From Trypanosoma brucei (lineage: Eukaryota), in contig CP000069.1 of assembly GCA_000002445.1 (NCBI GenBank), positions 704,001 through 768,000 on the forward strand: 64,000 bases of DNA, read 5' to 3'. Position 1 is the first letter of the stretch, and the number at the start of each line of letters is the position of its first letter. Below the pieces are notes generated by a model. It was not told the origin of the DNA. It made no database searches and worked only from the letters and a program-made list of their open reading frames with translations. Position numbers and translations under genes: made by a program. Shown in pieces: positions 6,698 through 24,319 of this stretch.

Positions 6698-8043
6698 CGT
6701 TTGCTTGCATCCACTCTTAGGTGTGGCGCCTTCGTTAGGGACCGCAGCACCGGCTGCTGTTTCCAGAGCATCTTCCCTTGCTTCATTTTCGTCCTCTGTT
6801 TTACCGTTATGTGTGTGTGTGTGCTACCGCGGTAAAGTAACCTAGCATGTTTGACGTTGTGTGCCACTTTTTTATGTGGACGAACGGTCCCACATGTTGG
6901 GAAATGTTAGTCCCTCAAGCACGTACGTGTACGAGAGAGGAATGAATGTATCGTATGCTATCTAGTAAATCCAACAAAAAGCATTCCCCTTTCTTTGACA
7001 CCTCCAGCATATTGCGCACCCTTTAAGGTTTGCCGGACGCGATCCTTCTACTTTCTACAGTTCGTTTGGCACAACGAATGGGACATTGTGAAGAAATCAG
7101 TTGTTCGGAACATAATATATTGCCCTTGATTAGCTTTGCAGACGTTTGTACGCCATGTGTACGTACAGAGCGAGTGGCACATCCTTGTCAGTGAATTGAA
7201 GAAACGGGGGAAAGTACACACTTCCTGAGTTAGAGCATGGCCTCACACATGTCTCTCTCCAGTCTTTTTTCGACTCTACCCTCTATTTTTTAGTTTTGAT
7301 ATTGTATTCCCTTTCATCGTCGCCCCAGTACTCGAGACACAGCTCACATTACTTATAGGTACCGCAGTCACTCCGCACTACAAGAAAAATACCAGCAACA
7401 AGTCAAAGTTTGAAATAAAGGGGAGGAAATGCGTAATTTAAGTGCTTTGCATGTACGGTGCATTTTTAATGTATTGGACCGATCCACGACGGTGACGCAA
7501 CTGTTACCCTCAGGATGCCACTACAGATTCGACCGCTCTAGCACCACACAGAGGGTCTACATTATGAATAACTCACAACATAACACATGAACAACGAATG
7601 AGGGAATAAATGATAAGATAAGGAAATGTCATTTGTGAAGAGCGCATTTATATTGTATGCATGGAAAGATGCACTTAATGTGGTTCGGTTTGTGTATTTC
7701 TAATTTGCTGCTGTAGTTGCTGACGTTTGTGGGCACTCGATAGTATTCTGTGTTTCGTATGAGGACCCCTACGTCTCTTCTTCCTTTCTTTGGCTCACGT
7801 TATCTGTAGGTTGTGCTGTACGCTCTGCCTTGACTGCTACTCGTATTGTTAGTCGGTTGTCGTTTTCACCCGTTACACTGCTGCCCTATATATATATATT
7901 GGCTTCGGTCCCACACTTTACTACATTATTTGTTAACCTACTGCTGTGATGCCCCTTCTATCATAGGAAAGGTATTATTAAGAAAAAGGCGTGGCGCGGG
8001 TGCCCCACTTCGTGGAAGAGAGTGGTTCTTAACGAATTAAGCT

Positions 8044-8610
8044 ATGCGGGCGTGGAGTAACCTGCTAGCGTCTGTGACGATGGCGCCGTTTTTTCTGCTA
8101 TGTTTTGTCTGCTCTTGCGTTTGGCCCGCCGTAGCTACTGCGGGAAGCATTCCCCTTGCTGTTGTGGGCAGTGTCATCACTTCAGAGGATGCGTACCGTT
8201 TTATTGAGGTTCAAGCTGTCGACGGCGCCACAGGAGCTGTTGTGCGCTCCGTGCCACTGGATGCAACGCTTACCTTTACTTTTCACGGTCTACCCCAAAC
8301 TGTAAGTGAGGTGCGGCTCTTGCCGAGGCTGCCTGAGCGGCGGTTTCGTCTCGATAGCAGTGCCTCTGTACTCACTGCGCCTTTGCGGACAAAAGATGGG
8401 GATGGGTGGCTCCACTTATCCGCGATTGTAGAGCAGCAAGATGGTTCACAAGCAGGGGATCAATTACCTGGGAGTATAAGTGCGGCAGTTATGGCAGCGA
8501 TGATTATTGCCCTTGCGGTGATTGGCCGATATCGATTGTTGTCGCTGTTTCAGTTTCCGGCTCCAAAACCGCCGAAGTTGCGTCGTGTAGCTGTGGCAGT
8601 GAATCGGTAA
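8044..8610 (+). CDS. hypothetical type-I membrane protein (copy 1) with an N-terminal signal peptide and a C-terminal TM helix
   Basis: 188-aa ORF with a hydrophobic N-terminus (MAPFFLLCFVCSCVWPAVATA) and a C-terminal hydrophobic stretch (AAVMAAMIIALAVIG) followed by basic residues. Confidence 0.5.
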   Translation: MRAWSNLLASVTMAPFFLLCFVCSCVWPAVATAGSIPLAVVGSVITSEDAYRFIEVQAVDGATGAVVRSVPLDATLTFTFHGLPQTVSEVRLLPRLPERRFRLDSSASVLTAPLRTKDGDGWLHLSAIVEQQDGSQAGDQLPGSISAAVMAAMIIALAVIGRYRLLSLFQFPAPKPPKLRRVAVAVNR

Positions 8611-9017
8611 GGCGAGTTTATGGACACGTGTGTGTTCTTGACTTTTCTCACATTCGTATTGCGGTGTGCTGTTGCGAGCATTTTGCATTTTCTGGTGTTG
8701 GTGTTGGTGTTGGTGCTGGGTATAGGGGTGCTACTGCTTGTTTATATGTATGTGTGCGTGTAACTCTCACTAGCATATGAACTCGAGTACTTTCTTCCTG
8801 CCTCTGCTGCTCGTCTGTTATCATGAAGCAGGTACCTCCTAACTCCACTGAGTTTGTAATTGGGCGCATTTTAACCTTCCTGTTGCGTTGCCACTGTAAC
8901 AGCACTGTACCCCTTTCCTTCACTTCTGTGCATATGTGCGTGCCAACAACTTTCCGACGACCCGCTGTCTTGTAGAAAGTAGCAACAGGTGAGCCCGTCA
9001 CGCCTTCTCCCCTGACG

Positions 9018-9770
9018 ATGCCCGCACGTGGCTGTGCCCCTGTTGATGAGCAGATCGCTGGGACAGACACGGAAGGACGACGCTACAGGTCAGTGGAGGA
9101 GATGTGGGGACGCGAGTTGCAGGGTAACTTGTACGACGCGAAGACAGGGTGGTATGGTAAGTCTCTCCAGTACTGGGGCAGCGTTCCGGCTACCGTCAGC
9201 GGTGTACTGGGCGGTATGGATCATGTGCATGATATCGACATCCGTGATTCACGCGCTTTCATATGCTGCTTGCCGGAGCGCGGCACTACACGTGCACTTG
9301 ACTGCGGTGCCGGTATTGGTCGAATCACCAAGTCCCTTTTGTGCCACTTATACGATGTGACAGATCTTCTGGAACCGGTGGCAAGCATGCTGGAGAAGGC
9401 GAAAGAGGAACTTGAGGGGTTTCCAGTGGGCGATTTCTTTCAGTCGTCGATGGAGACAGCGAAGCTTCAACCGAAGACATACGACCTCATTGTTATTCAA
9501 TGGGCGGCGATCTATCTGACAGACGAGGACTTTGTTGCTTTCTTGGTACGCTGCAAGGAGGCACTGACACCGAAGGGGTACATATTCTTCAAGGAGAATT
9601 GCGCGTCTGACGACGAGTTCATTGTTGACAAGGAGGACAGTAGCCTGACGCGATCCGACAAGCACTACAAGCGTATATTTGCCGCTGCCGGTATTGAGGT
9701 TGTTAAGGAGGCTATGCAAGGCGATTGGCCTGATGATCTGCTGAAGGTGAAGATGTACGCACTACGCTAA
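9018..9770 (+). CDS. alpha N-terminal protein methyltransferase, NTMT1/METTL11A family (copy 1)
   Basis: Family signature GWYGKSLQYW...VSGVLGG...DIDIRDSRAF. SAM-binding motif I LDCGAGIGRITKSLL. The 250-aa length is typical of the family. Confidence 0.8.
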   Translation: MPARGCAPVDEQIAGTDTEGRRYRSVEEMWGRELQGNLYDAKTGWYGKSLQYWGSVPATVSGVLGGMDHVHDIDIRDSRAFICCLPERGTTRALDCGAGIGRITKSLLCHLYDVTDLLEPVASMLEKAKEELEGFPVGDFFQSSMETAKLQPKTYDLIVIQWAAIYLTDEDFVAFLVRCKEALTPKGYIFFKENCASDDEFIVDKEDSSLTRSDKHYKRIFAAAGIEVVKEAMQGDWPDDLLKVKMYALR

Positions 9771-10144
9771 GCAGTTGGTCCTCCCACCGGTTGTTGATGT
9801 GTTCTCACTTCTTGTTGGCGCATTGCTGTTGTCGTCACTTTGTTTTGTTGTTCTTTGCATGGTTTATTTTTTTCAATTAGAGGCCACTACCTCTGCGTTG
9901 CCATCGCTTGGCTTACCCTAACGGTGGCACTGCCAACCCTCGTACTCGTCACACGGTGGTCTTCTACCTCTGCATGAATTTTTTGTGTTATTTTTCTTAA
10001 TGTCCGACTATTTATTGTTGTTACGTCCCTTAGCTACTTTTGTGTGTGTTTAGTGTTGTTACTTTTGTAGCGGGTAAATCAATTCACGGTTATCAGGTTA
10101 AATAGGGGTAGCCATAATCAGGACTCTGGTGTGTAAAGGCGTGC

Positions 10145-10591
10145 GTGCGTAGACAGAGAGATTACATCGAGATGTCTGCACTTGCGGAGGCCGAGCGCAT
10201 GGAGCGCGAAAAAGCCCTTATGGAGGGACAGCAGCGGGTGGACATGCTCCGTGAGACGGTACGTATAATGGCGAATCGGCAAGCCGTTCTCGTCGGGACG
10301 AAGCGCCGTCTGCAAATTTCCACCGGAGAGTTGCAGCGTCTCTCTTCTGACCACTGTGTGTATGAGAGTGTGGGCCGCGTGTTTCTCCGGACACCGGTGC
10401 CGGCGTTCATAGAGAAGCAGATGGAGGCTGCAGAGAGGTGCGAGGCCGAAGAGAAGCGGCTGATGAGTGAGAAGCAGAGAGTTGTGGAGCAACTGCAGAA
10501 GGATGAAGTGCAGCTCCGTGAAGCAGCACAGCAGTACATGGCTGAAATGAGTGCCCGTCGGCAGTTACAACAGCAGCAGCAGAAACAGTAA
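10145..10591 (+). CDS. prefoldin beta-type subunit-like coiled-coil protein (copy 1)
   Basis: 148 aa, arranged as coiled coil, then a beta-hairpin segment (CVYESVGRVFLRTPVP), then coiled coil, with a Q-rich tail. The assignment rests on this architecture only. Confidence 0.45.
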   Translation: MRRQRDYIEMSALAEAERMEREKALMEGQQRVDMLRETVRIMANRQAVLVGTKRRLQISTGELQRLSSDHCVYESVGRVFLRTPVPAFIEKQMEAAERCEAEEKRLMSEKQRVVEQLQKDEVQLREAAQQYMAEMSARRQLQQQQQKQ

Positions 10592-10948
10592 CAGCTACGC
10601 TCTGCCCGCAATCGGCGTTCTAGGTATCTGCCGATATTGTGCATTTCTGTTGTCTGAGGTGTGCGCTACAGAATGTGCTGCTTTGGAGTGCGGCACCCTA
10701 TCAGCAAGGGTCCGTTCCAAGTAGTTTTGGCGTGCGTGTGTGAGTTTGACTGTGATGCATGGGACACCGTATAATTTAACGTCTCAGTCACTGGTGATTT
10801 CTAGGTCTGTTTTCATTTGTGTGTACCCTGTTTTCTGTTTCCATTCCTGTTCTGGGTACATCTTCCTCTTTTGTTTCTCAAACCCGTTATGTGAACGTGG
10901 GGAGGAAGGGAGTGTGTGGCACTCGGTCGGTTGCGTTGAAGGTGAGGT

Positions 10949-13738
10949 TTGCTTGGACCGGCGATGCTGTGCAGCGGCCGCATTATTCTCAAGAAGAAAT
11001 GGATTCCTCCACTTGGTTACCGGCCGAAGGATTTCGAGAGAAAATTGCGTTCTCCGCGTTCGTCGAAACCGTGGCGCGACCGCCGCGCGGCATCGGGTGG
11101 GCAGATTGAGGTTTCACCGAGTACCGCGGCGACGAACATTCCGCGCGGTGACCTTGTCTTTAGGCCCCCGCTCGGTATTCGTGATGTGCGACCGGGCTCT
11201 CCTTCGGCGCTTCTTCCAACCTTTGGATTTTCAGAAGAGCATCTTGCTGCGCATGCTCTTCCCGCTGCGGGGTCGCAGGTGGAAGGCGGGGATGTGTTAG
11301 CTGTAGCGGACCCACGGTCAGCATCACATCTGACGCTACCATTTGGGAGGGCACTAAACGTTAATGTTGAAGAAATCAAGACATATGAGGAGGGACCTGT
11401 GCCCATACACCTTCAGCAATTCCGGCGTAGTAGGCGGGAAGCAGCCGATTCCATCATTCTACCTCGCCATATTAACCGACTGTTCCATAAAATAATGGGT
11501 TGGTCGGAAGACCTCGTGAAAGTGGAAATGGATGAAGCCCCAACCCCAAACACAGGTGGAGTGCCCTCTGACACCGCGGCAGTGCGTGCGAAGGAAGCAC
11601 AGGAGTCTGAAGTTCCGTTGCTGAGGATGAAATACGATAACGTTGTGGACAAGATGAAGTATGGTGTTCTTCTTGACAATTATGAGAAGGACAAGTTTGC
11701 GATCGAACACCAACTTGAGATTGCTGGCGAGAAGTTCGAGCGGAAGTTCCTTGACTGGGAGGGTATGCATGTTCTCGATCAGGACCCCAGTGCGGCAGTG
11801 CGCGAGGTGCTTGAGAACAAGGCATCAATAGTAATGGAACAACCATCCTCGTTTGCCATACCTGTAGTGAATCGTGACTGCTGCCGCGGGTGTGGTGCGC
11901 TTCTGCAGGACCAAGATGAGAACTCTTTCGGGTATGTGCGGAAAGGTGATGTGGAGCGGTACATCATTGAGAAACAACAGAAAATGAGGGCGCGTGCTGA
12001 GTACGCGGATCGAATGTCTGAGCTGCAGGCGCACTGGCGGAAACATGGTCGGCGTGTGGGCGAGGAGTGGCTGGATTTTATGACCCAGGAGGAATTTGAT
12101 GCCTTTTACCGAGATAGGAACGCGCCGTTTGTATGCCACCGCTGCCACGCGCTAGAGAACCTCGGGGTGGAGGGGCGGCGTCGCATATGGTCAGCACCGG
12201 ACTTCACTGACAAGTTGCGTGCCCTTCGTGAGAAGAAATGTGTAGTGGTTCTTGTTGTTGACGTAACAGATTTTCCTGGGACTATGGTGTATGACCTCCC
12301 GGGCCTCATATCGATGAACAATGATGTGATAATTGCTGTGAATAAGATGGATTGTGTTAGGAATCGCTCCTTCAACTACCGAGGCAAGGATCGTGCGGTC
12401 GCTGCTTGCCTTGTGACCGAGCGGTACGTGAGACGGTGGGTGACTGGGATCGCCGTTCAGTTTGGACTACCACGTCACCAGATAAAGGACGTGATTCCTT
12501 TGTCTGCGAAGCGTGGTTGGAATGTAGAGGCTCTAATAGCGGCTGTGGAGGAGGCCTCCAACCTCAACCTTCGGCGACCAACAAAACCCATACCGACGTA
12601 TTTCGTTGGTGTTGCGAATGTTGGGAAGTCCTCCGTTATTAACGCCATTGCCCACAAACTGTATGTGCCTCTGCCACCCCACCCGGAGAGTCGGAAGGTA
12701 TACTACACGAAGAAGGCACCGGATGGAAGTGAGTCTGTTTTCTGGCGGTGGTACACACCTCCTAATGTGAACCAGGCGGAAATGATTGACATTCCATCTC
12801 GGCACGACAAGAAAGCCTCGAAGCTGGTAACTACCTCCTCCTTGCCTGGTACCACGGTTGACGCTGTTGCAGTGCGCGTTTCGCTGAGTAAAGGCGCGGA
12901 GAAGGGCCGTGCACATCTGTTCGACACACCCGGCCTCCTTCCGCATTGGCACCGTCACTCACCCCTGACGCTACTACAGATGCGACGCACCCTCATTCGC
13001 AAGTTCCGCAATCCTCAGTGCTTTATCCTGGTGCCTGGGAACACATTGTTTCTCGGAGGCCTCTGTGCCGTGGACGTAGTGAAAGGAACGTCGCGCGGGA
13101 TGCTTTTCATGGTTTACACGTCGCAGAAGGTACGTAACGCCATCATTAACACAGACCGGTCGGATGAGTTTTGGAGGGAACAACTTGGTCGTGCGCTTGA
13201 CCCACCCGGATCTGTGGAACAAGTTGGTGATCTTCGGCTCACGGAGTCGAGGAGCTATTTGTTTGAATGCTACCAGCGTAACCGAAAGCGGCCAAAGGCG
13301 GATATCTATTTCTGCGGACTTGGCTGGGTTGCGTTCTGTGTGAATGAGCCCGCAGATGTGGTACTGCGTGTGCGGACCTTACCGGGAGTAGTGCATGGTG
13401 TGCGCGAACCGTTGCGGTACAAGGACCTACTGGCATTTAAAGGGTGGCCGAAACTGCGGCGTCGTTTCACTTCTGCCGGTGTTCCTAATGACGAGGAGGA
13501 TGATGACAACTCCATTGCCACCGTTGTACGACTGACTGCTGGAGGTGGTGCTTGTGGGTTATCCGCTGCACCTGTGTGCGGCTCACCGGAAGAAGATGTT
13601 GATGGTCCTGCAGTACGGGTTGTTCGCAAGTCGGTCTTGCCGAAACCCATTCCGGCGTCGTCCACTCCTTTCGACGGCGTTGTTGAGGAACTGAGCCTAT
13701 CGGGACAAGCGGGAGGCGGTACGGGTGCGGGGATGTGA
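10949..13738 (+). CDS. circularly permuted GTPase of the YqeH/NOA1 family (copy 1), a likely mitochondrial ribosome-assembly factor
   Basis: N-terminal zinc knuckle CCRGCGALLQDQDENSFGY...CHRCH as in YqeH. GTPase motifs occur in permuted order: G4 NKMD, G1 GVANVGKSSVINAI, and G3 DTPGL. Confidence 0.75.
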   Translation: MLGPAMLCSGRIILKKKWIPPLGYRPKDFERKLRSPRSSKPWRDRRAASGGQIEVSPSTAATNIPRGDLVFRPPLGIRDVRPGSPSALLPTFGFSEEHLAAHALPAAGSQVEGGDVLAVADPRSASHLTLPFGRALNVNVEEIKTYEEGPVPIHLQQFRRSRREAADSIILPRHINRLFHKIMGWSEDLVKVEMDEAPTPNTGGVPSDTAAVRAKEAQESEVPLLRMKYDNVVDKMKYGVLLDNYEKDKFAIEHQLEIAGEKFERKFLDWEGMHVLDQDPSAAVREVLENKASIVMEQPSSFAIPVVNRDCCRGCGALLQDQDENSFGYVRKGDVERYIIEKQQKMRARAEYADRMSELQAHWRKHGRRVGEEWLDFMTQEEFDAFYRDRNAPFVCHRCHALENLGVEGRRRIWSAPDFTDKLRALREKKCVVVLVVDVTDFPGTMVYDLPGLISMNNDVIIAVNKMDCVRNRSFNYRGKDRAVAACLVTERYVRRWVTGIAVQFGLPRHQIKDVIPLSAKRGWNVEALIAAVEEASNLNLRRPTKPIPTYFVGVANVGKSSVINAIAHKLYVPLPPHPESRKVYYTKKAPDGSESVFWRWYTPPNVNQAEMIDIPSRHDKKASKLVTTSSLPGTTVDAVAVRVSLSKGAEKGRAHLFDTPGLLPHWHRHSPLTLLQMRRTLIRKFRNPQCFILVPGNTLFLGGLCAVDVVKGTSRGMLFMVYTSQKVRNAIINTDRSDEFWREQLGRALDPPGSVEQVGDLRLTESRSYLFECYQRNRKRPKADIYFCGLGWVAFCVNEPADVVLRVRTLPGVVHGVREPLRYKDLLAFKGWPKLRRRFTSAGVPNDEEDDDNSIATVVRLTAGGGACGLSAAPVCGSPEEDVDGPAVRVVRKSVLPKPIPASSTPFDGVVEELSLSGQAGGGTGAGM

Positions 13739-14409
13739 GTCTGGCGTGCTACCGTTTGTGCGGAGAACCGACCGACCTTTGTGGGTATAACACAATGCAC
13801 TGATGTTTGATTCATCCTTTTTCATGTTGTCCCAACCGACTTACTTGTTCCGCTCCGTTCCGTTCTGTTGCGTTGTGCTGCTGATACTGCAATTTCTTTC
13901 TCGTCGCTTTTGTTGTCAATTTTCTTTATCGTGCTGCGGTGATCTGCAATGGAGGGGTATGCCGTCGCTGGGGATAGACGTTTGCATTTACATGGATAGT
14001 GTTTTCATAGCTGTTCTACCCCTGTTTCTGGAGACGCGGCATTGCTGTTGGCGTTACTTTATATGATTAGTTTTGGTTGTGTTCTGGGGGTGGATGTGCG
14101 ATGGACGGGTGTGCTGTCTGTCACCGAAGGCCGATGCGTTTTGGTACGCCGTGACTGATGTTACTGTTATTTTTTTAAAGGTTGCGTTGAGTTTCTATCG
14201 CCTTGATGTGTGTTGTTAGTGTCTTTTATTTTTGTTGTGTCACTCTTATTTTGCTGATTACTGCTTTATAGTGTAGCAGTTGTCATTCTCGATATCCTTT
14301 CTCCTTGATCTACTTCATTACGTGTAATATTACCCTGGTGGGATAACTCTGCCCAAGGCCGATAGTTATAACGCTAACAAGAATCATCTACTTTCAGTCA
14401 TCTAAAGGT

Positions 14410-15453
14410 TTGCAAATGTCATCCGCTCCTCTGAGGGTATACGTTCAGTGTAATCCATTACTTGACGTCTCGGCTCACGTGTCCGACGAATTTTTGGTCA
14501 AGTATGGTTTGGAGCGCGGTACGGCCATCTTGTTGTCTGAGCGCCAGAAAGGAATATTCGACGATATCGAGAAAATGCCCAATGTGCGGTATGTCCCTGG
14601 TGGATCTGGCTTGAACGTGGCGCGCGTTGCGCAGTGGATGCAGCAAGCGTATAAGGGGAAGTTTGTTACATATGTTGGCTGCATTGCAGATGATCGGTAC
14701 GGCAAGGTTCTGAAGGAAGCTGCCGAGCATGAAGGAATTGTGATGGCTGTTGAGCATACGACGAAAGCAGGGAGTGGTGCGTGTGCAGTTTGTATCACCG
14801 GCAAGGAACGCACTCTTGTTGCTGATCTTGGTGCAGCAAATCACCTCTCCAGTGAGCATATGCGCTCCCCTGCTGTCGTGAGGGCGATGGATGAATCCAG
14901 AATTTTCTATTTCTCCGGTTTCACGTTGACAGTTGACGTTAATCACGTTCTTCAGGCGTGCAGAAAGGCTCGTGAGGTGGATGGACTTTTTATGATCAAC
15001 TTATCGGCCCCTTTTATTATGCAATTCTTTTCCGCGCAACTTGGGGAGGTTCTGCCCTATACTGATATAATTGTGGCCAACCGACATGAGGCAAAGGAGT
15101 TTGCCAACATGATGAAGTGGGATACGGACTGTGTCGAGGAGATTGCAAGGCGAGCAGTATCTGAGGTTCCTTACACAGGCACAAAAGGTCGTGTTGTTGT
15201 GTTCACTCGTGATATTGAACCTACTGTAATTGCAACTAAGGATGGTGTGGAGACGGTTCCTGTACCTCAGTTAGATCAGGACAAAGTAATTGACATGAAT
15301 GGTGCTGGGGATGCATTTGTGGGTGGATTTTTGAGTGCTTATGCCGTTGGTAAGGATTTGCGGCGCTGTTGCGAAACTGGCCACTACACAGCACAAGAGG
15401 TTATCCAGCAAGACGGTTGCTCGTTCCCCGAGAAGCCCAGTTTCTCTCCTTGA
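14410..15453 (+). CDS. ADK: adenosine kinase (PfkB/ribokinase family), upstream tandem copy
   Basis: N-terminal PfkB motif GGSGLNVARVAQ and C-terminal motif DMNGAGDAFVGGFL. The 347-aa length is typical. T. brucei is known to carry tandem AK genes. Confidence 0.9.
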   Translation: MQMSSAPLRVYVQCNPLLDVSAHVSDEFLVKYGLERGTAILLSERQKGIFDDIEKMPNVRYVPGGSGLNVARVAQWMQQAYKGKFVTYVGCIADDRYGKVLKEAAEHEGIVMAVEHTTKAGSGACAVCITGKERTLVADLGAANHLSSEHMRSPAVVRAMDESRIFYFSGFTLTVDVNHVLQACRKAREVDGLFMINLSAPFIMQFFSAQLGEVLPYTDIIVANRHEAKEFANMMKWDTDCVEEIARRAVSEVPYTGTKGRVVVFTRDIEPTVIATKDGVETVPVPQLDQDKVIDMNGAGDAFVGGFLSAYAVGKDLRRCCETGHYTAQEVIQQDGCSFPEKPSFSP

Positions 15454-16110: not shown

Positions 16111-16510
16111 TTGTGTCTGTGCCGTGGACGTAGTGAAAGGAACGTCGCGCGGGATGCTTTTCATGGTTTACACGTCGCAGAAGGTACGTAACGCCATCAT
16201 TAACACAGACCGGTCGGATGAGTTTTGGAGGGAACAACTTGGTCGTGCGCTTGACCCACCCGGATCTGTGGAACAAGTTGGTGATCTTCGGCTCACGGAG
16301 TCGAGGAGCTATTTGTTTGAATGCTACCAGCGTAACCGAAAGCGGCCAAAGGCGGATATCTATTTCTGCGGACTTGGCTGGGTTGCGTTCTGTGTGAATG
16401 AGCCCGCAGATGTGGTACTGCGTGTGCGGACCTTACCGGGAGTAGTGCATGGTGTGCGCGAACCGTTGCGGTACAAGGACCTACTGGCATTTAAAGGGTG
16501 GCCGAAACTG
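16111..16510 (+). pseudogene. 400-bp internal fragment of the YqeH-like GTPase gene, a third copy of 13070-13449, sitting at the duplication junction. It is part of the chimeric ORF 16082-16582.
   Basis: The ORF 16082-16582 translation (CAVDVVKGTSRGMLFMVYTSQ...LLAFKGWPKL) is identical to GTPase residues encoded at 13070-13449. It is then fused in frame to sequence homologous to 7645 onwards. There is no start context or N-terminal domain. Confidence 0.85.
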
Positions 16511-16909
16511 CATTTATATTGTATGCATGGAAAGATGCACTTAATGTGGTTCGGTTTGTGTATTTCTAATTTGCTGCTGTAGTTGCTGACGTTTGTGGGC
16601 ACTCGATAGTATTCTGTGTTTCGTATGAGGACCCCTACGTCTCTTCTTCCTTTCTTTGGCTCACGTTATCTGTAGGTTGTGCTGTACGCTCTGCCTTGAC
16701 TGCTACTCGTATTGTTAGTCGGTTGTCGTTTTCACCCGTTACACTGCTGCCCTATATATATATATTGGCTTCGGTCCCACACTTTACTACATTATTTGTT
16801 AACCTACTGCTGTGATGCCCCTTCTATCATAGGAAAGGTATTATTAAGAAAAAGGCGTGGCGCGGGTGCCCCACTTCGTGGAAGAGAGTGGTTCTTAACG
16901 AATTAAGCT

Positions 16910-17476
16910 ATGCGGGCGTGGAGTAACCTGCTAGCGTCTGTGACGATGGCGCCGTTTTTTCTGCTATGTTTTGTCTGCTCTTGCGTTTGGCCCGCCGTAG
17001 CTACTGCGGGAAGCATTCCCCTTGCTGTTGTGGGCAGTGTCATCACTTCAGAGGATGCGTACCGTTTTATTGAGGTTCAAGCTGTCGACGGCGCCACAGG
17101 AGCTGTTGTGCGCTCCGTGCCACTGGATGCAACGCTTACCTTTACTTTTCACGGTCTACCCCAAACTGTAAGTGAGGTGCGGCTCTTGCCGAGGCTGCCT
17201 GAGCGGCGGTTTCGTCTCGATAGCAGTGCCTCTGTACTCACTGCGCCTTTGCGGACAAAAGATGGGGATGGGTGGCTCCACTTATCCGCGATTGTAGAGC
17301 AGCAAGATGGTTCACAAGCAGGGGATCAATTACCTGGGAGTATAAGTGCGGCAGTTATGGCAGCGATGATTATTGCCCTTGCGGTGATTGGCCGATATCG
17401 ATTGTTGTCGCTGTTTCAGTTTCCGGCTCCAAAACCGCCGAAGTTGCGTCGTGTAGCTGTGGCAGTGAATCGGTAA
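16910..17476 (+). CDS. hypothetical type-I membrane protein (copy 2)
   Basis: Translation identical to 8044-8610. Confidence 0.5.
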   Translation: MRAWSNLLASVTMAPFFLLCFVCSCVWPAVATAGSIPLAVVGSVITSEDAYRFIEVQAVDGATGAVVRSVPLDATLTFTFHGLPQTVSEVRLLPRLPERRFRLDSSASVLTAPLRTKDGDGWLHLSAIVEQQDGSQAGDQLPGSISAAVMAAMIIALAVIGRYRLLSLFQFPAPKPPKLRRVAVAVNR

Positions 17477-17883
17477 GGCGAGTTTATGGACACGTGTGTG
17501 TTCTTGACTTTTCTCACATTCGTATTGCGGTGTGCTGTTGCGAGCATTTTGCATTTTCTGGTGTTGGTGTTGGTGTTGGTGCTGGGTATAGGGGTGCTAC
17601 TGCTTGTTTATATGTATGTGTGCGTGTAACTCTCACTAGCATATGAACTCGAGTACTTTCTTCCTGCCTCTGCTGCTCGTCTGTTATCATGAAGCAGGTA
17701 CCTCCTAACTCCACTGAGTTTGTAATTGGGCGCATTTTAACCTTCCTGTTGCGTTGCCACTGTAACAGCACTGTACCCCTTTCCTTCACTTCTGTGCATA
17801 TGTGCGTGCCAACAACTTTCCGACGACCCGCTGTCTTGTAGAAAGTAGCAACAGGTGAGCCCGTCACGCCTTCTCCCCTGACG

Positions 17884-18636
17884 ATGCCCGCACGTGGCTG
17901 TGCCCCTGTTGATGAGCAGATCGCTGGGACAGACACGGAAGGACGACGCTACAGGTCAGTGGAGGAGATGTGGGGACGCGAGTTGCAGGGTAACTTGTAC
18001 GACGCGAAGACAGGGTGGTATGGTAAGTCTCTCCAGTACTGGGGCAGCGTTCCGGCTACCGTCAGCGGTGTACTGGGCGGTATGGATCATGTGCATGATA
18101 TCGACATCCGTGATTCACGCGCTTTCATATGCTGCTTGCCGGAGCGCGGCACTACACGTGCACTTGACTGCGGTGCCGGTATTGGTCGAATCACCAAGTC
18201 CCTTTTGTGCCACTTATACGATGTGACAGATCTTCTGGAACCGGTGGCAAGCATGCTGGAGAAGGCGAAAGAGGAACTTGAGGGGTTTCCAGTGGGCGAT
18301 TTCTTTCAGTCGTCGATGGAGACAGCGAAGCTTCAACCGAAGACATACGACCTCATTGTTATTCAATGGGCGGCGATCTATCTGACAGACGAGGACTTTG
18401 TTGCTTTCTTGGTACGCTGCAAGGAGGCACTGACACCGAAGGGGTACATATTCTTCAAGGAGAATTGCGCGTCTGACGACGAGTTCATTGTTGACAAGGA
18501 GGACAGTAGCCTGACGCGATCCGACAAGCACTACAAGCGTATATTTGCCGCTGCCGGTATTGAGGTTGTTAAGGAGGCTATGCAAGGCGATTGGCCTGAT
18601 GATCTGCTGAAGGTGAAGATGTACGCACTACGCTAA
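17884..18636 (+). CDS. alpha N-terminal protein methyltransferase NTMT1 family (copy 2)
   Basis: Translation identical to 9018-9770. Confidence 0.8.
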   Translation: MPARGCAPVDEQIAGTDTEGRRYRSVEEMWGRELQGNLYDAKTGWYGKSLQYWGSVPATVSGVLGGMDHVHDIDIRDSRAFICCLPERGTTRALDCGAGIGRITKSLLCHLYDVTDLLEPVASMLEKAKEELEGFPVGDFFQSSMETAKLQPKTYDLIVIQWAAIYLTDEDFVAFLVRCKEALTPKGYIFFKENCASDDEFIVDKEDSSLTRSDKHYKRIFAAAGIEVVKEAMQGDWPDDLLKVKMYALR

Positions 18637-19010
18637 GCAGTTGGTCCTCCCACCGGTTGTTGATGTGTTCTCACTTCTTGTTGGCGCATTGCTGTTGTCG
18701 TCACTTTGTTTTGTTGTTCTTTGCATGGTTTATTTTTTTCAATTAGAGGCCACTACCTCTGCGTTGCCATCGCTTGGCTTACCCTAACGGTGGCACTGCC
18801 AACCCTCGTACTCGTCACACGGTGGTCTTCTACCTCTGCATGAATTTTTTGTGTTATTTTTCTTAATGTCCGACTATTTATTGTTGTTACGTCCCTTAGC
18901 TACTTTTGTGTGTGTTTAGTGTTGTTACTTTTGTAGCGGGTAAATCAATTCACGGTTATCAGGTTAAATAGGGGTAGCCATAATCAGGACTCTGGTGTGT
19001 AAAGGCGTGC

Positions 19011-19457
19011 GTGCGTAGACAGAGAGATTACATCGAGATGTCTGCACTTGCGGAGGCCGAGCGCATGGAGCGCGAAAAAGCCCTTATGGAGGGACAGCAG
19101 CGGGTGGACATGCTCCGTGAGACGGTACGTATAATGGCGAATCGGCAAGCCGTTCTCGTCGGGACGAAGCGCCGTCTGCAAATTTCCACCGGAGAGTTGC
19201 AGCGTCTCTCTTCTGACCACTGTGTGTATGAGAGTGTGGGCCGCGTGTTTCTCCGGACACCGGTGCCGGCGTTCATAGAGAAGCAGATGGAGGCTGCAGA
19301 GAGGTGCGAGGCCGAAGAGAAGCGGCTGATGAGTGAGAAGCAGAGAGTTGTGGAGCAACTGCAGAAGGATGAAGTGCAGCTCCGTGAAGCAGCACAGCAG
19401 TACATGGCTGAAATGAGTGCCCGTCGGCAGTTACAACAGCAGCAGCAGAAACAGTAA
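19011..19457 (+). CDS. prefoldin beta-like protein (copy 2)
   Basis: Translation identical to 10145-10591. Confidence 0.45.
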   Translation: MRRQRDYIEMSALAEAERMEREKALMEGQQRVDMLRETVRIMANRQAVLVGTKRRLQISTGELQRLSSDHCVYESVGRVFLRTPVPAFIEKQMEAAERCEAEEKRLMSEKQRVVEQLQKDEVQLREAAQQYMAEMSARRQLQQQQQKQ

Positions 19458-19814
19458 CAGCTACGCTCTGCCCGCAATCGGCGTTCTAGGTATCTGCCGA
19501 TATTGTGCATTTCTGTTGTCTGAGGTGTGCGCTACAGAATGTGCTGCTTTGGAGTGCGGCACCCTATCAGCAAGGGTCCGTTCCAAGTAGTTTTGGCGTG
19601 CGTGTGTGAGTTTGACTGTGATGCATGGGACACCGTATAATTTAACGTCTCAGTCACTGGTGATTTCTAGGTCTGTTTTCATTTGTGTGTACCCTGTTTT
19701 CTGTTTCCATTCCTGTTCTGGGTACATCTTCCTCTTTTGTTTCTCAAACCCGTTATGTGAACGTGGGGAGGAAGGGAGTGTGTGGCACTCGGTCGGTTGC
19801 GTTGAAGGTGAGGT

Positions 19815-22604
19815 TTGCTTGGACCGGCGATGCTGTGCAGCGGCCGCATTATTCTCAAGAAGAAATGGATTCCTCCACTTGGTTACCGGCCGAAGGATTT
19901 CGAGAGAAAATTGCGTTCTCCGCGTTCGTCGAAACCGTGGCGCGACCGCCGCGCGGCATCGGGTGGGCAGATTGAGGTTTCACCGAGTACCGCGGCGACG
20001 AACATTCCGCGCGGTGACCTTGTCTTTAGGCCCCCGCTCGGTATTCGTGATGTGCGACCGGGCTCTCCTTCGGCGCTTCTTCCAACCTTTGGATTTTCAG
20101 AAGAGCATCTTGCTGCGCATGCTCTTCCCGCTGCGGGGTCGCAGGTGGAAGGCGGGGATGTGTTAGCTGTAGCGGACCCACGGTCAGCATCACATCTGAC
20201 GCTACCATTTGGGAGGGCACTAAACGTTAATGTTGAAGAAATCAAGACATATGAGGAGGGACCTGTGCCCATACACCTTCAGCAATTCCGGCGTAGTAGG
20301 CGGGAAGCAGCCGATTCCATCATTCTACCTCGCCATATTAACCGACTGTTCCATAAAATAATGGGTTGGTCGGAAGACCTCGTGAAAGTGGAAATGGATG
20401 AAGCCCCAACCCCAAACACAGGTGGAGTGCCCTCTGACACCGCGGCAGTGCGTGCGAAGGAAGCACAGGAGTCTGAAGTTCCGTTGCTGAGGATGAAATA
20501 CGATAACGTTGTGGACAAGATGAAGTATGGTGTTCTTCTTGACAATTATGAGAAGGACAAGTTTGCGATCGAACACCAACTTGAGATTGCTGGCGAGAAG
20601 TTCGAGCGGAAGTTCCTTGACTGGGAGGGTATGCATGTTCTCGATCAGGACCCCAGTGCGGCAGTGCGCGAGGTGCTTGAGAACAAGGCATCAATAGTAA
20701 TGGAACAACCATCCTCGTTTGCCATACCTGTAGTGAATCGTGACTGCTGCCGCGGGTGTGGTGCGCTTCTGCAGGACCAAGATGAGAACTCTTTCGGGTA
20801 TGTGCGGAAAGGTGATGTGGAGCGGTACATCATTGAGAAACAACAGAAAATGAGGGCGCGTGCTGAGTACGCGGATCGAATGTCTGAGCTGCAGGCGCAC
20901 TGGCGGAAACATGGTCGGCGTGTGGGCGAGGAGTGGCTGGATTTTATGACCCAGGAGGAATTTGATGCCTTTTACCGAGATAGGAACGCGCCGTTTGTAT
21001 GCCACCGCTGCCACGCGCTAGAGAACCTCGGGGTGGAGGGGCGGCGTCGCATATGGTCAGCACCGGACTTCACTGACAAGTTGCGTGCCCTTCGTGAGAA
21101 GAAATGTGTAGTGGTTCTTGTTGTTGACGTAACAGATTTTCCTGGGACTATGGTGTATGACCTCCCGGGCCTCATATCGATGAACAATGATGTGATAATT
21201 GCTGTGAATAAGATGGATTGTGTTAGGAATCGCTCCTTCAACTACCGAGGCAAGGATCGTGCGGTCGCTGCTTGCCTTGTGACCGAGCGGTACGTGAGAC
21301 GGTGGGTGACTGGGATCGCCGTTCAGTTTGGACTACCACGTCACCAGATAAAGGACGTGATTCCTTTGTCTGCGAAGCGTGGTTGGAATGTAGAGGCTCT
21401 AATAGCGGCTGTGGAGGAGGCCTCCAACCTCAACCTTCGGCGACCAACAAAACCCATACCGACGTATTTCGTTGGTGTTGCGAATGTTGGGAAGTCCTCC
21501 GTTATTAACGCCATTGCCCACAAACTGTATGTGCCTCTGCCACCCCACCCGGAGAGTCGGAAGGTATACTACACGAAGAAGGCACCGGATGGAAGTGAGT
21601 CTGTTTTCTGGCGGTGGTACACACCTCCTAATGTGAACCAGGCGGAAATGATTGACATTCCATCTCGGCACGACAAGAAAGCCTCGAAGCTGGTAACTAC
21701 CTCCTCCTTGCCTGGTACCACGGTTGACGCTGTTGCAGTGCGCGTTTCGCTGAGTAAAGGCGCGGAGAAGGGCCGTGCACATCTGTTCGACACACCCGGC
21801 CTCCTTCCGCATTGGCACCGTCACTCACCCCTGACGCTACTACAGATGCGACGCACCCTCATTCGCAAGTTCCGCAATCCTCAGTGCTTTATCCTGGTGC
21901 CTGGGAACACATTGTTTCTCGGAGGCCTCTGTGCCGTGGACGTAGTGAAAGGAACGTCGCGCGGGATGCTTTTCATGGTTTACACGTCGCAGAAGGTACG
22001 TAACGCCATCATTAACACAGACCGGTCGGATGAGTTTTGGAGGGAACAACTTGGTCGTGCGCTTGACCCACCCGGATCTGTGGAACAAGTTGGTGATCTT
22101 CGGCTCACGGAGTCGAGGAGCTATTTGTTTGAATGCTACCAGCGTAACCGAAAGCGGCCAAAGGCGGATATCTATTTCTGCGGACTTGGCTGGGTTGCGT
22201 TCTGTGTGAATGAGCCCGCAGATGTGGTACTGCGTGTGCGGACCTTACCGGGAGTAGTGCATGGTGTGCGCGAACCGTTGCGGTACAAGGACCTACTGGC
22301 ATTTAAAGGGTGGCCGAAACTGCGGCGTCGTTTCACTTCTGCCGGTGTTCCTAATGACGAGGAGGATGATGACAACTCCATTGCCACCGTTGTACGACTG
22401 ACTGCTGGAGGTGGTGCTTGTGGGTTATCCGCTGCACCTGTGTGCGGCTCACCGGAAGAAGATGTTGATGGTCCTGCAGTACGGGTTGTTCGCAAGTCGG
22501 TCTTGCCGAAACCCATTCCGGCGTCGTCCACTCCTTTCGACGGCGTTGTTGAGGAACTGAGCCTATCGGGACAAGCGGGAGGCGGTACGGGTGCGGGGAT
22601 GTGA
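19815..22604 (+). CDS. YqeH/NOA1-type circularly permuted GTPase (copy 2)
   Basis: Translation identical to 10949-13738. Confidence 0.75.
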   Translation: MLGPAMLCSGRIILKKKWIPPLGYRPKDFERKLRSPRSSKPWRDRRAASGGQIEVSPSTAATNIPRGDLVFRPPLGIRDVRPGSPSALLPTFGFSEEHLAAHALPAAGSQVEGGDVLAVADPRSASHLTLPFGRALNVNVEEIKTYEEGPVPIHLQQFRRSRREAADSIILPRHINRLFHKIMGWSEDLVKVEMDEAPTPNTGGVPSDTAAVRAKEAQESEVPLLRMKYDNVVDKMKYGVLLDNYEKDKFAIEHQLEIAGEKFERKFLDWEGMHVLDQDPSAAVREVLENKASIVMEQPSSFAIPVVNRDCCRGCGALLQDQDENSFGYVRKGDVERYIIEKQQKMRARAEYADRMSELQAHWRKHGRRVGEEWLDFMTQEEFDAFYRDRNAPFVCHRCHALENLGVEGRRRIWSAPDFTDKLRALREKKCVVVLVVDVTDFPGTMVYDLPGLISMNNDVIIAVNKMDCVRNRSFNYRGKDRAVAACLVTERYVRRWVTGIAVQFGLPRHQIKDVIPLSAKRGWNVEALIAAVEEASNLNLRRPTKPIPTYFVGVANVGKSSVINAIAHKLYVPLPPHPESRKVYYTKKAPDGSESVFWRWYTPPNVNQAEMIDIPSRHDKKASKLVTTSSLPGTTVDAVAVRVSLSKGAEKGRAHLFDTPGLLPHWHRHSPLTLLQMRRTLIRKFRNPQCFILVPGNTLFLGGLCAVDVVKGTSRGMLFMVYTSQKVRNAIINTDRSDEFWREQLGRALDPPGSVEQVGDLRLTESRSYLFECYQRNRKRPKADIYFCGLGWVAFCVNEPADVVLRVRTLPGVVHGVREPLRYKDLLAFKGWPKLRRRFTSAGVPNDEEDDDNSIATVVRLTAGGGACGLSAAPVCGSPEEDVDGPAVRVVRKSVLPKPIPASSTPFDGVVEELSLSGQAGGGTGAGM

Positions 22605-23275
22605 GTCTGGCGTGCTACCGTTTGTGCGGAGAACCGACCGACCTTTGTGGGTATAACACAATGCACTGATGTTTGATTCATCCTTTTTCATGTTGTCCCA
22701 ACCGACTTACTTGTTCCGCTCCGTTCCGTTCTGTTGCGTTGTGCTGCTGATACTGCAATTTCTTTCTCGTCGCTTTTGTTGTCAATTTTCTTTATCGTGC
22801 TGCGGTGATCTGCAATGGAGGGGTATGCCGTCGCTGGGGATAGACGTTTGCATTTACATGGATAGTGTTTTCATAGCTGTTCTACCCCTGTTTCTGGAGA
22901 CGCGGCATTGCTGTTGGCGTTACTTTATATGATTAGTTTTGGTTGTGTTCTGGGGGTGGATGTGCGATGGACGGGTGTGCTGTCTGTCACCGAAGGCCGA
23001 TGCGTTTTGGTACGCCGTGACTGATGTTACTGTTATTTTTTTAAAGGTTGCGTTGAGTTTCTATCGCCTTGATGTGTGTTGTTAGTGTCTTTTATTTTTG
23101 TTGTGTCACTCTTATTTTGCTGATTACTGCTTTATAGTGTAGCAGTTGTCATTCTCGATATCCTTTCTCCTTGATCTACTTCATTACGTGTAATATTACC
23201 CTGGTGGGATAACTCTGCCCAAGGCCGATAGTTATAACGCTAACAAGAATCATCTACTTTCAGTCATCTAAAGGT

Positions 23276-24319
23276 TTGCAAATGTCATCCGCTCCTCTGA
23301 GGGTATACGTTCAGTGTAATCCATTACTTGACGTCTCGGCTCACGTGTCCGACGAATTTTTGGTCAAGTATGGTTTGGAGCGCGGTACGGCCATCTTGTT
23401 GTCTGAGCGCCAGAAAGGAATATTCGACGATATCGAGAAAATGCCCAATGTGCGGTATGTCCCTGGTGGATCTGGCTTGAACGTGGCGCGCGTTGCGCAG
23501 TGGATGCAGCAAGCGTATAAGGGGAAGTTTGTTACATATGTTGGCTGCATTGCAGATGATCGGTACGGCAAGGTTCTGAAGGAAGCTGCCGAGCATGAAG
23601 GAATTGTGATGGCTGTTGAGCATACGACGAAAGCAGGGAGTGGTGCGTGTGCAGTTTGTATCACCGGCAAGGAACGCACTCTTGTTGCTGATCTTGGTGC
23701 AGCAAATCACCTCTCCAGTGAGCATATGCGCTCCCCTGCTGTCGTGAGGGCGATGGATGAATCCAGAATTTTCTATTTCTCCGGTTTCACGTTGACAGTT
23801 GACGTTAATCACGTTCTTCAGGCGTGCAGAAAGGCTCGTGAGGTGGATGGACTTTTTATGATCAACTTATCGGCCCCTTTTATTATGCAATTCTTTTCCG
23901 CGCAACTTGGGGAGGTTCTGCCCTATACTGATATAATTGTGGCCAACCGACATGAGGCAAAGGAGTTTGCCAACATGATGAAGTGGGATACGGACTGTGT
24001 CGAGGAGATTGCAAGGCGAGCAGTATCTGAGGTTCCTTACACAGGCACAAAAGGTCGTGTTGTTGTGTTCACTCGTGATATTGAATCAACAGTGCTTGCA
24101 ACTAAGGATGGTGTGGAGACGGTTCCTGTACCTCAGTTAGATCAGGACAAAGTAATTGACATGAATGGTGCTGGGGATGCATTTATGGGTGGATTTTTGA
24201 GTGCTTATGCCGTTGGTAAGGATTTGCGGCGCTGTTGCGAAACTGGCCACTACACAGCACAAGAGGTTATCCAGCGTGACGGTTGCTCGTTCCCCGAGAA
24301 GCCCAGTTTCTCTCCTTGA
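23276..24319 (+). CDS. ADK: adenosine kinase, downstream tandem copy. It differs from copy 1 at four C-terminal residues: P to S, I to L, V to M, and Q to R.
   Basis: Same motifs as 14410-15453, with DMNGAGDAFMGGFL. The first nucleotide difference is at 24086, and the 3' flank is unrelated to that of copy 1. Confidence 0.9.
   Translation: MQMSSAPLRVYVQCNPLLDVSAHVSDEFLVKYGLERGTAILLSERQKGIFDDIEKMPNVRYVPGGSGLNVARVAQWMQQAYKGKFVTYVGCIADDRYGKVLKEAAEHEGIVMAVEHTTKAGSGACAVCITGKERTLVADLGAANHLSSEHMRSPAVVRAMDESRIFYFSGFTLTVDVNHVLQACRKAREVDGLFMINLSAPFIMQFFSAQLGEVLPYTDIIVANRHEAKEFANMMKWDTDCVEEIARRAVSEVPYTGTKGRVVVFTRDIESTVLATKDGVETVPVPQLDQDKVIDMNGAGDAFMGGFLSAYAVGKDLRRCCETGHYTAQEVIQRDGCSFPEKPSFSP

What the first reader, a model, noticed from the sequence alone, without database searches (positions are those of the whole stretch)
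7645..24319. 8,866-bp direct tandem duplication of a five-gene block whose long ORFs translate identically in both copies
Every six-frame ORF of at least 60 aa between 7846 and 14946, on both strands and including non-coding frames, recurs with identical translation and at a constant +8866 offset in 16712-23812. The stretches I compared base by base at both ends match, and the first nucleotide difference seen is 15220 vs 24086. The unit carries a membrane protein, an NTMT1-type methyltransferase, a prefoldin-like protein, a YqeH/NOA1 GTPase and most of adenosine kinase. Near-zero divergence over 7.5 kb, even in intergenic DNA, means either a very recent duplication or ongoing concerted evolution by gene conversion. 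It is also a region where assemblies can collapse or mis-join. T. brucei is known to carry tandem adenosine kinase genes, which fits. What is visible here is that the intervening four genes are co-duplicated at sequence identity.
Basis: seen in the sequence. Interest (0 to 1): 0.7.

Follow-up and report, generated by a model that had tools for sequence, protein, structure and literature searches.

The report
Trypanosoma brucei adenosine-kinase block duplication
This is the known tandem adenosine-kinase locus of Trypanosoma brucei chromosome 6: a real five-gene duplication whose two copies are kept identical by ongoing recombination between them, which is typical of this parasite and not surprising.

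Summary
Window 7644-15219 equals 16510-24085 exactly: 7,576 bp with no differences, at offset +8,866. Similarity continues with 8 substitutions and one 1-bp gap to 15461/24326, which is 8 nt past the adenosine kinase (AK) stop codon.

The 8,866-bp period is not all repeat. It also holds a 654-bp unique spacer and a 396-bp identical fragment of the NOA1-like GTPase gene. That fragment joins copy 2 through a 2-bp microhomology.

The two AK proteins are exactly Q584S6 and Q584S0 of T. b. brucei TREU927, the published "tandem gene". T. vivax and T. cruzi carry single copies, so the duplication arose in the T. brucei lineage.

The same junctions occur in T. b. gambiense and in two T. equiperdum assemblies. 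Strain-specific variants sit in both copies of each strain. The AK 3' ends differ by about 3.3%, and those differences are shared across subspecies. This supports concerted evolution and rules out a very recent duplication.

A long-read BoTat assembly has no AK1 or spacer at the locus, so the locus is structurally polymorphic.

One caveat remains. An alternative gene order that differs only in the path through the 396-bp repeat cannot be excluded without long reads.

Interest is low: a known locus of a known kind.

The parts
7644..15461 (+). Copy 1 of the duplicated segment (7,818 bp). 7644-15219 is the tract identical to copy 2.
   Evidence: exact run 7644-15219 = 16510-24085. BLAST 7644-15461 vs 16510-24326 gives 99.885%.
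16510..24326 (+). Copy 2 of the duplicated segment. 16510-24085 is identical to copy 1.
8044..8610 (+). Gene M1: 188-aa protein with hydrophobic N- and C-terminal stretches and no Pfam family. Copy M2 is at 16910-17476.
   Evidence: identical ORFs; no Pfam match; called as a gene in the gambiense and equiperdum annotations.
9018..9770 (+). Gene N1: N-terminal protein methyltransferase (NTM1/NTMT1 type), 250 aa. Copy N2 is at 17884-18636.
   Evidence: PF05891 Methyltransf_PK, E = 9.3e-64, full length.
10172..10591 (+). Gene P1: prefoldin-type subunit, 139 aa. Copy P2 is at 19038-19457.
   Evidence: PF01920 Prefoldin_2, E = 8.6e-10.
10964..13738 (+). Gene G1: YqeH/NOA1-like GTPase, 924 aa from the ATG at 10964. 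Copy G2 is at 19830-22604.
   Evidence: MMR_HSR1 above its cutoff, YqeH-like_C just below its cutoff. Tb927.6.2290 is named a NOA1 homologue found with mitoribosomal small-subunit precursors. Orthologues are 73% identical in T. vivax and T. cruzi.
14416..15453 (+). AK1: adenosine kinase, 345 aa, equal to Q584S6 (the peptide DIEPTVIATK isoform).
   Evidence: exact match to P0121 (AAZ11792/XP_845351). PfkB, E = 1.4e-54.
23282..24319 (+). AK2: adenosine kinase, 345 aa, equal to Q584S0 (the peptide DIESTVLATK isoform).
   Evidence: exact match to P0122 (AAZ11798/XP_845357); that peptide was assigned to Q584S0 by mass spectrometry.
15220..15461 (+). Unhomogenised right edge (partner 24086-24326). 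It holds 8 substitutions (15220, 15222, 15225, 15228, 15229, 15319, 15410, 15411) and a 1-bp gap after the stop codon. These give P/S, I/L, V/M and Q/R differences.
   Evidence: The same AK1-type and AK2-type states occur in T. b. gambiense.
15462..16115 (+). Spacer S: 654-bp AK1-specific 3' flank. It has no counterpart after AK2 and none elsewhere in the window.
   Evidence: the local alignment score against the AK2 flank is no better than for shuffled sequence. S is present in the gambiense and equiperdum OVI assemblies and absent from the BoTat locus.
16116..16511 (+). Fragment F (Gb'): 396-bp, 100% identical third copy of GTPase codons (13062-13457 = 21928-22323). It lies inside the pseudogene ORF 16082-16582.
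   Evidence: 100%, 396 bp; (YqeH-like_C hit on the ORF).
16510..16511 (+). Junction J1: GTPase position 13457 joined to 7644 through the 2-bp microhomology 'gc'.
   Evidence: sequence; the 40-mer across J1 is identical in T. b. gambiense (L001:5749) and T. b. equiperdum BoTat (L007:8619).
24327..25689 (+). Flank T: AK2-specific 3' flank leading to the HECT ubiquitin-ligase gene.
   Evidence: HECT follows the single AK gene in T. vivax and T. cruzi.

Best explanation
This is a T. brucei-lineage tandem segmental duplication inside one polycistronic transcription unit on chromosome 6. The unit carries a membrane protein, an NTM1 methyltransferase, a prefoldin subunit, a NOA1-like GTPase and adenosine kinase.

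**Age.** The duplication is not young.
- Its junctions are shared by T. b. brucei 927, T. b. gambiense and T. equiperdum.
- The AK 3' ends have diverged by about 3.3%.

**Homogenisation.** The 7.6-kb perfect identity is maintained by recurrent recombination between the copies, either gene conversion or unequal crossing-over. This is concerted evolution. Homogenisation stops about 240 bp short of the right-hand end of homology. As a result the two AK isoforms keep 4 amino-acid differences and entirely different 3' flanks.

**Likely effect (inferred).** Dosage of five genes is doubled in an organism without gene-specific promoters. The two AK genes probably carry different 3'UTRs.

**Structural variation.** The repeated modules also drive rearrangement. 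The BoTat long-read assembly equals this locus minus the 3,054 bp that holds the GTPase 3' end, AK1, the spacer and the 396-bp fragment. Recombination between direct repeats would produce exactly that.

**Origin (inferred, weakly).** Either one replication-type event left a 654-bp insert and a 396-bp templated fragment at the junction, or two nested duplications were followed by repeat recombination.
For: **Shown**

- Exact 7,576-bp identity, with the boundary at 15219/15220.
- Single-copy order N..P-G-AK-HECT in T. vivax and G..AK-HECT in T. cruzi.
- Junction J1 is identical in gambiense and BoTat. Junction S|13062 is identical in gambiense and OVI.
- Window vs BoTat over 5.8 kb: 13 substitutions and 3 indels are strain-specific yet present in both copies of each strain. 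Only 3 BoTat differences are in one copy. No site groups copy 1 with copy 1 across strains.
- The same pattern holds with gambiense added, including a gambiense-private variant (9222) in both gambiense copies.
- At the orthologue divergence of 0.26%, about 20 paralogue differences are expected in 7,576 bp and none is seen (P about 3e-9). At the AK 3'-end rate, about 250 are expected.
- The AK1-type and AK2-type 3'-end states are shared by 927 and gambiense.
- BoTat has K-[M N P G'(854 aa)]-[M N P G AK2]-T without AK1 or spacer, in a gap-free long-read contig.

**From the literature**

- AK is described as a tandem gene with 4/345 differences.
- Concerted evolution and multi-gene segmental duplications are described as common in T. 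brucei.
Against: - Identity of copies within an assembly can be inflated by collapsed consensus or by polishing with multi-mapped reads. The gambiense and OVI assemblies are gapped or collapsed here, so only 927 and BoTat give independent two-copy sequence.
- The order shown in the window (spacer - 396-bp fragment - copy 2) is seen only in the window. Gambiense and BoTat show GTPase 5' part - 396 bp - J1. Gambiense and OVI show spacer - 396 bp - GTPase 3' end.
- The left edge shows no divergent zone, unlike the right edge, so a simple 'edge effect' does not fully explain the asymmetry.
- The origin of the spacer is unknown.
- No expression data were examined. The dosage and 3'UTR effects are inferred.
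Confidence: 0.8

Rival explanations
1. The duplication is very recent and the copies have simply had no time to diverge. No gene conversion is needed.
For: Zero differences over 7,576 bp, including intergenic DNA.
Against: - The exact junctions are shared by 927, gambiense, OVI and BoTat, so the event predates their split.
- After that split, 16 or more mutational events came to occupy both copies in each strain.
- The last 242 bp differ by 3.3%, and those differences are shared across subspecies.
Confidence: 0.04
2. The content is real but the reference order is a mis-join through the 396-bp repeat. The true structure would be two separate simple tandem duplications: K-[M N P G-truncated]-J1-[M N P G AK1 spacer]-[GTPase fragment AK2]-T. 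That is a 5,814-bp four-gene duplication followed by a ~3,054-bp AK duplication, not one 8,866-bp five-gene unit.
For: - This arrangement has exactly the same segment content and the same three novel junctions as the window.
- Gambiense and BoTat contigs run GTPase 5' part - 396 bp - J1 - M.
- Gambiense and OVI contigs run spacer - 396 bp - GTPase 3' end - AK.
- No assembly other than the window shows spacer - 396 bp - J1. A look-up of the ORF spanning it found nothing.
- BoTat would derive from this order by recombination across 2.2 kb of identity.
Against: - The window matches a finished clone-based reference. A 396-bp repeat is short enough for single Sanger reads to span.
- The gambiense contigs are flanked by gaps and contain an impossible AK1-spacer-AK1-spacer cycle that looks like collapse.
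- OVI is a short-read assembly with a gap exactly at 13061.
- BoTat derives equally well from the window's order, by recombination between the two 396-bp copies.
Confidence: 0.2
3. The perfect identity is an assembly artefact: the consensus of a collapsed repeat was written twice. The real copies would differ at the usual 0.2-3%.
For: Repeats of 7.6 kb exceed Sanger read and small-insert spans.
Against: - The BoTat long-read assembly resolves two copies that are also nearly identical to each other while differing from 927 at 16 events.
- The gambiense assembly keeps private single-copy differences in AK (14928, 15165, 15239), which shows that assemblers do separate the copies when differences exist.
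- The 927 assembly itself kept the 8 differences at the AK 3' end.
Confidence: 0.06

Closest known systems
TbAK tandem gene of Trypanosoma brucei (Q584S6/Q584S0; I recall the gene names as Tb927.6.2300 and Tb927.6.2360)
   Same: The proteins are exactly the same sequences. The literature states that AK is a tandem gene whose two products differ at 4 of 345 residues. Crystal structures exist for this enzyme (2XTB, 3OTX, 4N08).
   Different: The papers I could read treat only the AK genes. I found no description of the four co-duplicated genes, the junction fragment, the different 3' flanks or the homogenisation pattern. The original 2007 paper was not available to read.
Multi-gene tandem segmental duplications of T. 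brucei catalogued by Jackson (2007, PMC1855330; 2010, PMC2854126)
   Same: They are head-to-tail repeats of several unrelated genes within a polycistronic unit, often with near-zero distance between copies. Examples are the 4-gene dynamin/LRRP/aminopeptidase pair on chromosome 3 and the 6,350-bp 3-gene S7/nicotinamidase pair. Concerted evolution by unequal crossing-over and gene conversion is described as pervasive.
   Different: This block does not appear among the chromosome 6 entries of the 2007 catalogue. It is also not in the 2010 list of subspecies-specific duplications. That absence fits its presence in both brucei and gambiense.
Classical concerted evolution with escape at the repeat edge, and repeat-mediated copy-number change, as in human alpha-globin or other segmental duplications (general knowledge, not tested here)
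   Same: Paralogues are more alike within a genome than orthologues are between genomes. Divergence is confined to the border of homology. Deletion variants are bounded by direct repeats.
   Different: This is a different organism, and here the copies sit in a promoter-less polycistron, so copy number is a main lever on expression (stated in the abstract of PMC1855330). Only one edge shows divergence.

Membership tests
Tandem segmental duplication under concerted evolution | Two head-to-tail copies in the same orientation with a novel junction | tested here: met
   constant offset +8866, same strand, junction 13457|7644 with 2-bp microhomology.
Tandem segmental duplication under concerted evolution | Single copy in outgroup species at the syntenic position | tested here: met
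   T. vivax and T. cruzi have one P/G/AK followed by HECT within +/-10 kb. T. congolense could not be examined at the DNA level; only one AK sequence was listed for it.
Tandem segmental duplication under concerted evolution | Paralogues within a genome are more similar than orthologues between genomes, although the duplication predates the split | tested here: met
   16 events between 927 and BoTat are present in both copies, and no sites support copy-wise orthology. Junction 40-mers are shared. Caveat: this rests on assemblies, not reads.
Tandem segmental duplication under concerted evolution | Copy number and order confirmed by molecules that span the repeat | not testable with these tools
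   No read data are available. Only BoTat is a gap-free long-read contig, and it shows a different structure.
TbAK tandem gene (T. b. brucei TREU927) | Two AK genes encoding Q584S6 and Q584S0, differing at 4 of 345 residues | tested here: met
   exact matches to P0121 and P0122; P/S, I/L, V/M, Q/R.
Assembly artefact (false duplication) | Junction sequences absent from independent assemblies of related strains | tested here: not met
   J1 is present in gambiense and BoTat. The spacer|13062 junction is present in gambiense and OVI.
Assembly artefact (mis-join through an internal repeat) | Connectivity through the 396-bp three-copy repeat differs from that in other assemblies | tested here: inconclusive
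   other assemblies show the alternative paths, but two of them are gapped or collapsed and BoTat lacks the AK1 module altogether.
NTM1/NTMT1 N-terminal methyltransferase (gene N) | Full-length match to PF05891 above the gathering score | tested here: met
   215 bits against a cutoff of 27, profile positions 3-218 of 218.
YqeH/NOA1 circularly permuted GTPase (gene G) | GTPase domain plus YqeH-like C-terminal domain | tested here: inconclusive
   MMR_HSR1 33 bits (cutoff 21.9) but only a short stretch. YqeH-like_C 23.9 bits, below the 27.7 cutoff, in the full protein; 28.0 bits, above the cutoff, in the fragment ORF. A preprint calls Tb927.6.2290 a NOA1 homologue.
PfkB-family adenosine kinase (AK1, AK2) | Full-length PfkB domain and identity to the crystallised enzyme | tested here: met
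   (186 bits); 100% identity to the T. b. rhodesiense AK chains 2XTB/3OTX.

The most novel reading that the evidence does not exclude
The locus is a three-module, recombination-prone structure that produces adenosine kinase copy-number and arrangement variants among T. brucei lineages. BoTat, which has lost AK1, is one example. Selection keeps the AK 3' ends and 3'UTRs distinct against a background of conversion, which yields two differently regulated isoforms. AK activates adenosine-analogue prodrugs such as cordycepin and tubercidin derivatives, so such variants could change drug sensitivity in the field.
Probability: 0.25. Interest if true: 0.45.

Novelty: already known. Interest (0 to 1): 0.22.

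Why it matters
**Enzyme.** AK is the high-affinity adenosine salvage enzyme of a purine-auxotrophic parasite. It also activates adenosine-analogue drug candidates: AK knockdown reduced susceptibility about 20-fold to one compound and about 3-fold to another.

**Practical consequences.**
- The two AK genes sit in a recombining 8.9-kb repeat together with four passenger genes. This matters for knock-out design, RNAi specificity and read mapping.
- Short-read assemblies collapse this region.
- Copy-number calls across isolates need care here.

**Worked example.** The locus is a clean case of concerted evolution over several unrelated genes, with one edge that escapes. It does not change current understanding of trypanosome genome evolution.

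Tried and rejected
- **Origin of the 654-bp spacer.** Sensitive blastn against the whole window and a local alignment against the AK2 flank gave nothing above shuffled controls. Its origin stays unknown.
- **RNA genes in 6500-26000.** There were no Rfam matches at E <= 0.1, so snoRNA-cluster repeats are not involved.
- **Exact-protein look-ups.** AK2, the full GTPase and the junction-spanning ORF found no record. The source contig itself seems not to be retrievable, so there is no independent copy of the window's arrangement.
- **T. b. gambiense as a test of gene order.** Its scaffold has two gaps and an AK1-spacer cycle whose two spacer copies are identical. It cannot decide between arrangements.
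- **T. equiperdum OVI.** It is collapsed to one copy with a 10-N gap at 13061, and its AK is a chimaera of AK1 and AK2 states.
- **Ancestral states of the four AK differences.** Outgroup proteins give a mixed picture, so neither isoform is simply ancestral.
- **Literature.** The 2007 TbAK paper is not held. Jackson's array catalogue does not list the block. Papers that cite the gene IDs do not discuss the duplication.
- **'Simple tandem duplication of 8,866 bp'.** I rejected this as the origin. A simple event would leave the same flank after both AK genes and no GTPase fragment at the junction.
Full report
**1. Observation**

A base-by-base comparison at offset +8866 shows that window 7644-15219 is identical to 16510-24085. 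That is 7,576 bp without a mismatch.

BLAST extends the similarity to 15461/24326: 7,818 bp, 8 mismatches and one 1-bp gap. The end point is 8 nt beyond the adenosine kinase (AK) stop codon at 15453/24319. All genes are on the + strand.

The 8,866-bp period is not wholly repeated. After copy 1 comes a 654-bp spacer (15462-16115) with no detectable similarity to the flank of AK2 or to anything else in the window. Next comes a 396-bp piece (16116-16511) that is a third, 100% identical copy of GTPase codons 13062-13457. This fragment abuts copy 2 with a 2-bp overlap, 'gc'. It creates a pseudogene ORF at 16082-16582.

**2. What the genes are and where the window comes from**

Pfam identifies:

| Coordinates | Product | Pfam result |
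|---|---|---|
| 9018-9770 | NTM1-type methyltransferase | PF05891, 9e-64 |
| 10172-10591 | prefoldin subunit | Prefoldin_2 |
| 10964-13738 | GTPase | MMR_HSR1 and YqeH-like_C signals |
| 14416-15453 and 23282-24319 | AK1 and AK2 | PfkB |
| 8044-8610 | 188-aa protein | no family |

A 2026 preprint names Tb927.6.2290 a NOA1 homologue that co-purifies with mitoribosomal small-subunit precursors. By position this should be GTPase copy 1, which is my inference.

AK1 and AK2 are exactly Q584S6 and Q584S0 of T. b. brucei TREU927. [quoted passage not shown]

**3. Age and lineage**

- T. vivax has N..P-G-AK-HECT and T. cruzi has G..AK-HECT. Each gene is single-copy within the 21 kb examined. The duplication therefore arose on the T. 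brucei branch.
- The 40-mer across junction J1 (13457|7644) is identical in T. b. gambiense DAL972 and T. b. equiperdum BoTat.
- The 40-mer across the spacer|13062 junction is identical in gambiense and T. equiperdum OVI.

The rearrangement therefore predates the divergence of these lineages.

**4. Recent duplication or concerted evolution?**

I aligned both copies from the window and from the gap-free BoTat long-read contig over 5.8 kb.

- 13 substitutions and 3 indels distinguish the strains but are present in both copies of each strain.
- Only three BoTat differences are in one copy. At least one of these is a 1-bp deletion typical of long-read error.
- No site groups copy 1 with copy 1 across strains.

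Adding gambiense for 7681-9745 gives the same picture. It includes a gambiense-private base (9222) in both gambiense copies.

At the observed orthologue divergence of 0.26%, about 20 paralogue differences would be expected in 7,576 bp. None is seen (P about 3e-9).

The last 242 bp of the repeat differ by 3.3%. The AK1-type and AK2-type states there are the same in 927 and gambiense. That part is far older than the subspecies split and has escaped homogenisation.

Together these results rule out 'too young to have diverged'. They support recurrent gene conversion or unequal crossing-over. Jackson (2007) describes this behaviour as pervasive in T. brucei tandem arrays.

Gambiense keeps three private single-copy differences in AK: 14928, 15165 and 15239. 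Homogenisation therefore looks episodic, not continuous.

**5. Structural variation**

The BoTat contig reads K-[M N P G'(854 aa, truncated at J1)]-[M N P G AK2-type]-T, with no AK1 and no spacer. It equals the window minus 3,054 bp. That loss is the expected product of recombination between direct repeats.

BoTat and OVI are independent East African derivatives of T. brucei. OVI still has the spacer and an AK1-type end. I therefore read BoTat as a derived loss, but this is an inference.

**6. Caveat on the order**

An arrangement that differs only in the path through the 396-bp repeat has identical content and identical junctions. It would read K-[M N P G-truncated]-J1-[M N P G AK1 spacer]-[GTPase fragment AK2]-T.

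- Gambiense and BoTat show GTPase 5' part - 396 bp - J1.
- Gambiense and OVI show spacer - 396 bp - GTPase 3' end.
- Only the window shows spacer - 396 bp - J1.

The gambiense and OVI assemblies are gapped or collapsed exactly here. BoTat is uninformative because it lacks the AK1 module. I give the alternative about 20%. If it were true, the 'five-gene 8,866-bp unit' would really be a 5.8-kb four-gene duplication next to a 3-kb AK duplication. The conclusions on age and concerted evolution would stand.

**7. Origin (inferred)**

A simple tandem duplication cannot give different flanks after the two AK genes plus a GTPase fragment at the junction. There are two candidate histories:

- One replication-type event with template switches duplicated 7644-15461 and left the spacer and a templated 396-bp piece at the junction.
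- Two nested duplications were followed by repeat recombination.

The homology boundary lies within 8 nt of the AK stop codon, and five substitutions cluster in 10 bp at 15220-15229. Neither history explains these two features.

**8. Function (inferred)**

Trypanosome genes lack individual promoters, and tandem duplication is thought to raise dosage (abstract of PMC1855330). AK, the adenosine salvage enzyme and prodrug activator, is the most plausible selected gene. The other four are likely passengers. The two AK genes have unrelated 3' flanks, which in trypanosomes usually carry the regulatory information (general knowledge). Differential regulation was not tested here.

**9. Comparison with what is known, and verdict**

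The AK tandem is published. Multi-gene segmental duplications with near-zero distance, and concerted evolution, are documented for T. brucei.

This particular block is missing from the chromosome 6 entries of Jackson's 2007 catalogue. It is also absent from the 2010 list of subspecies-specific duplications. I found no paper that discusses the intervening genes.

The new details are the junction anatomy, the one-sided escape from homogenisation, the cross-strain evidence for concerted evolution and the BoTat deletion variant. These are refinements of a known locus of a known kind. Interest is low.

Noticed in passing
window 654-1241 (ORF 537-2921, + strand): An 87-bp tandem repeat of about 6-7 copies at 99% identity encodes GDQRNYDNRGGRGEWGDRGGQRGDNQRDY units at the N-terminus of a 794-aa protein. 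From memory this resembles the RGG-repeat RNA-binding protein TbRGG1 of chromosome 6. That identification was not tested.
   Followed up: partly
L001 (T. b. gambiense DAL972, FN554969.1) 7859-7959 and 11847-11946: The public gambiense chromosome 6 scaffold has two N gaps inside this locus. Its contig runs AK1 end - spacer - GTPase fragment - AK1 - spacer, which looks like a collapsed cycle. Its annotation therefore shows two adjacent AK genes and a truncated 854-aa GTPase, which probably does not reflect the real order.
   Followed up: partly
L006/L008 (T. equiperdum OVI, CZPT02001752.1): The short-read assembly collapses the duplication to one copy, with a 10-N gap exactly at window position 13061. 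It reports a chimaeric AK that is AK1-type at 15220-15229 and AK2-type from 15319 on.
   Followed up: yes
L005/L007 (T. b. equiperdum BoTat, CM010677.1): 1-bp deletions at the equivalents of window 11349 (GTPase copy 2) and 15411 (AK) break or extend the ORFs. AK is annotated as 374 aa and the full GTPase is not called. These are probably long-read indel errors, not real pseudogenes.
   Followed up: partly
window 15220-15229 vs 24086-24095: Five of the eight AK1/AK2 substitutions fall within 10 bp (cctactgtaatt vs tcaacagtgctt). This cluster looks like a single multi-nucleotide event or a short patch copied from a diverged donor, not independent point mutations.
   Followed up: no
window 15444: Inside the otherwise unhomogenised AK 3' end, this site is C in both 927 copies and T in both gambiense copies. 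It may reflect a separate short conversion tract or a shared polymorphism.
   Followed up: no
L003/L004 (T. cruzi) 3325-9461: In T. cruzi, two amastin genes and an epimerase/dehydratase-family gene lie between the GTPase and AK. In T. brucei and T. vivax the GTPase and AK are adjacent.
   Followed up: no
window 24535-24552 and 25644-25662: Short (TG)n and (TA)n microsatellites lie in the AK2-HECT intergenic region.
   Followed up: no
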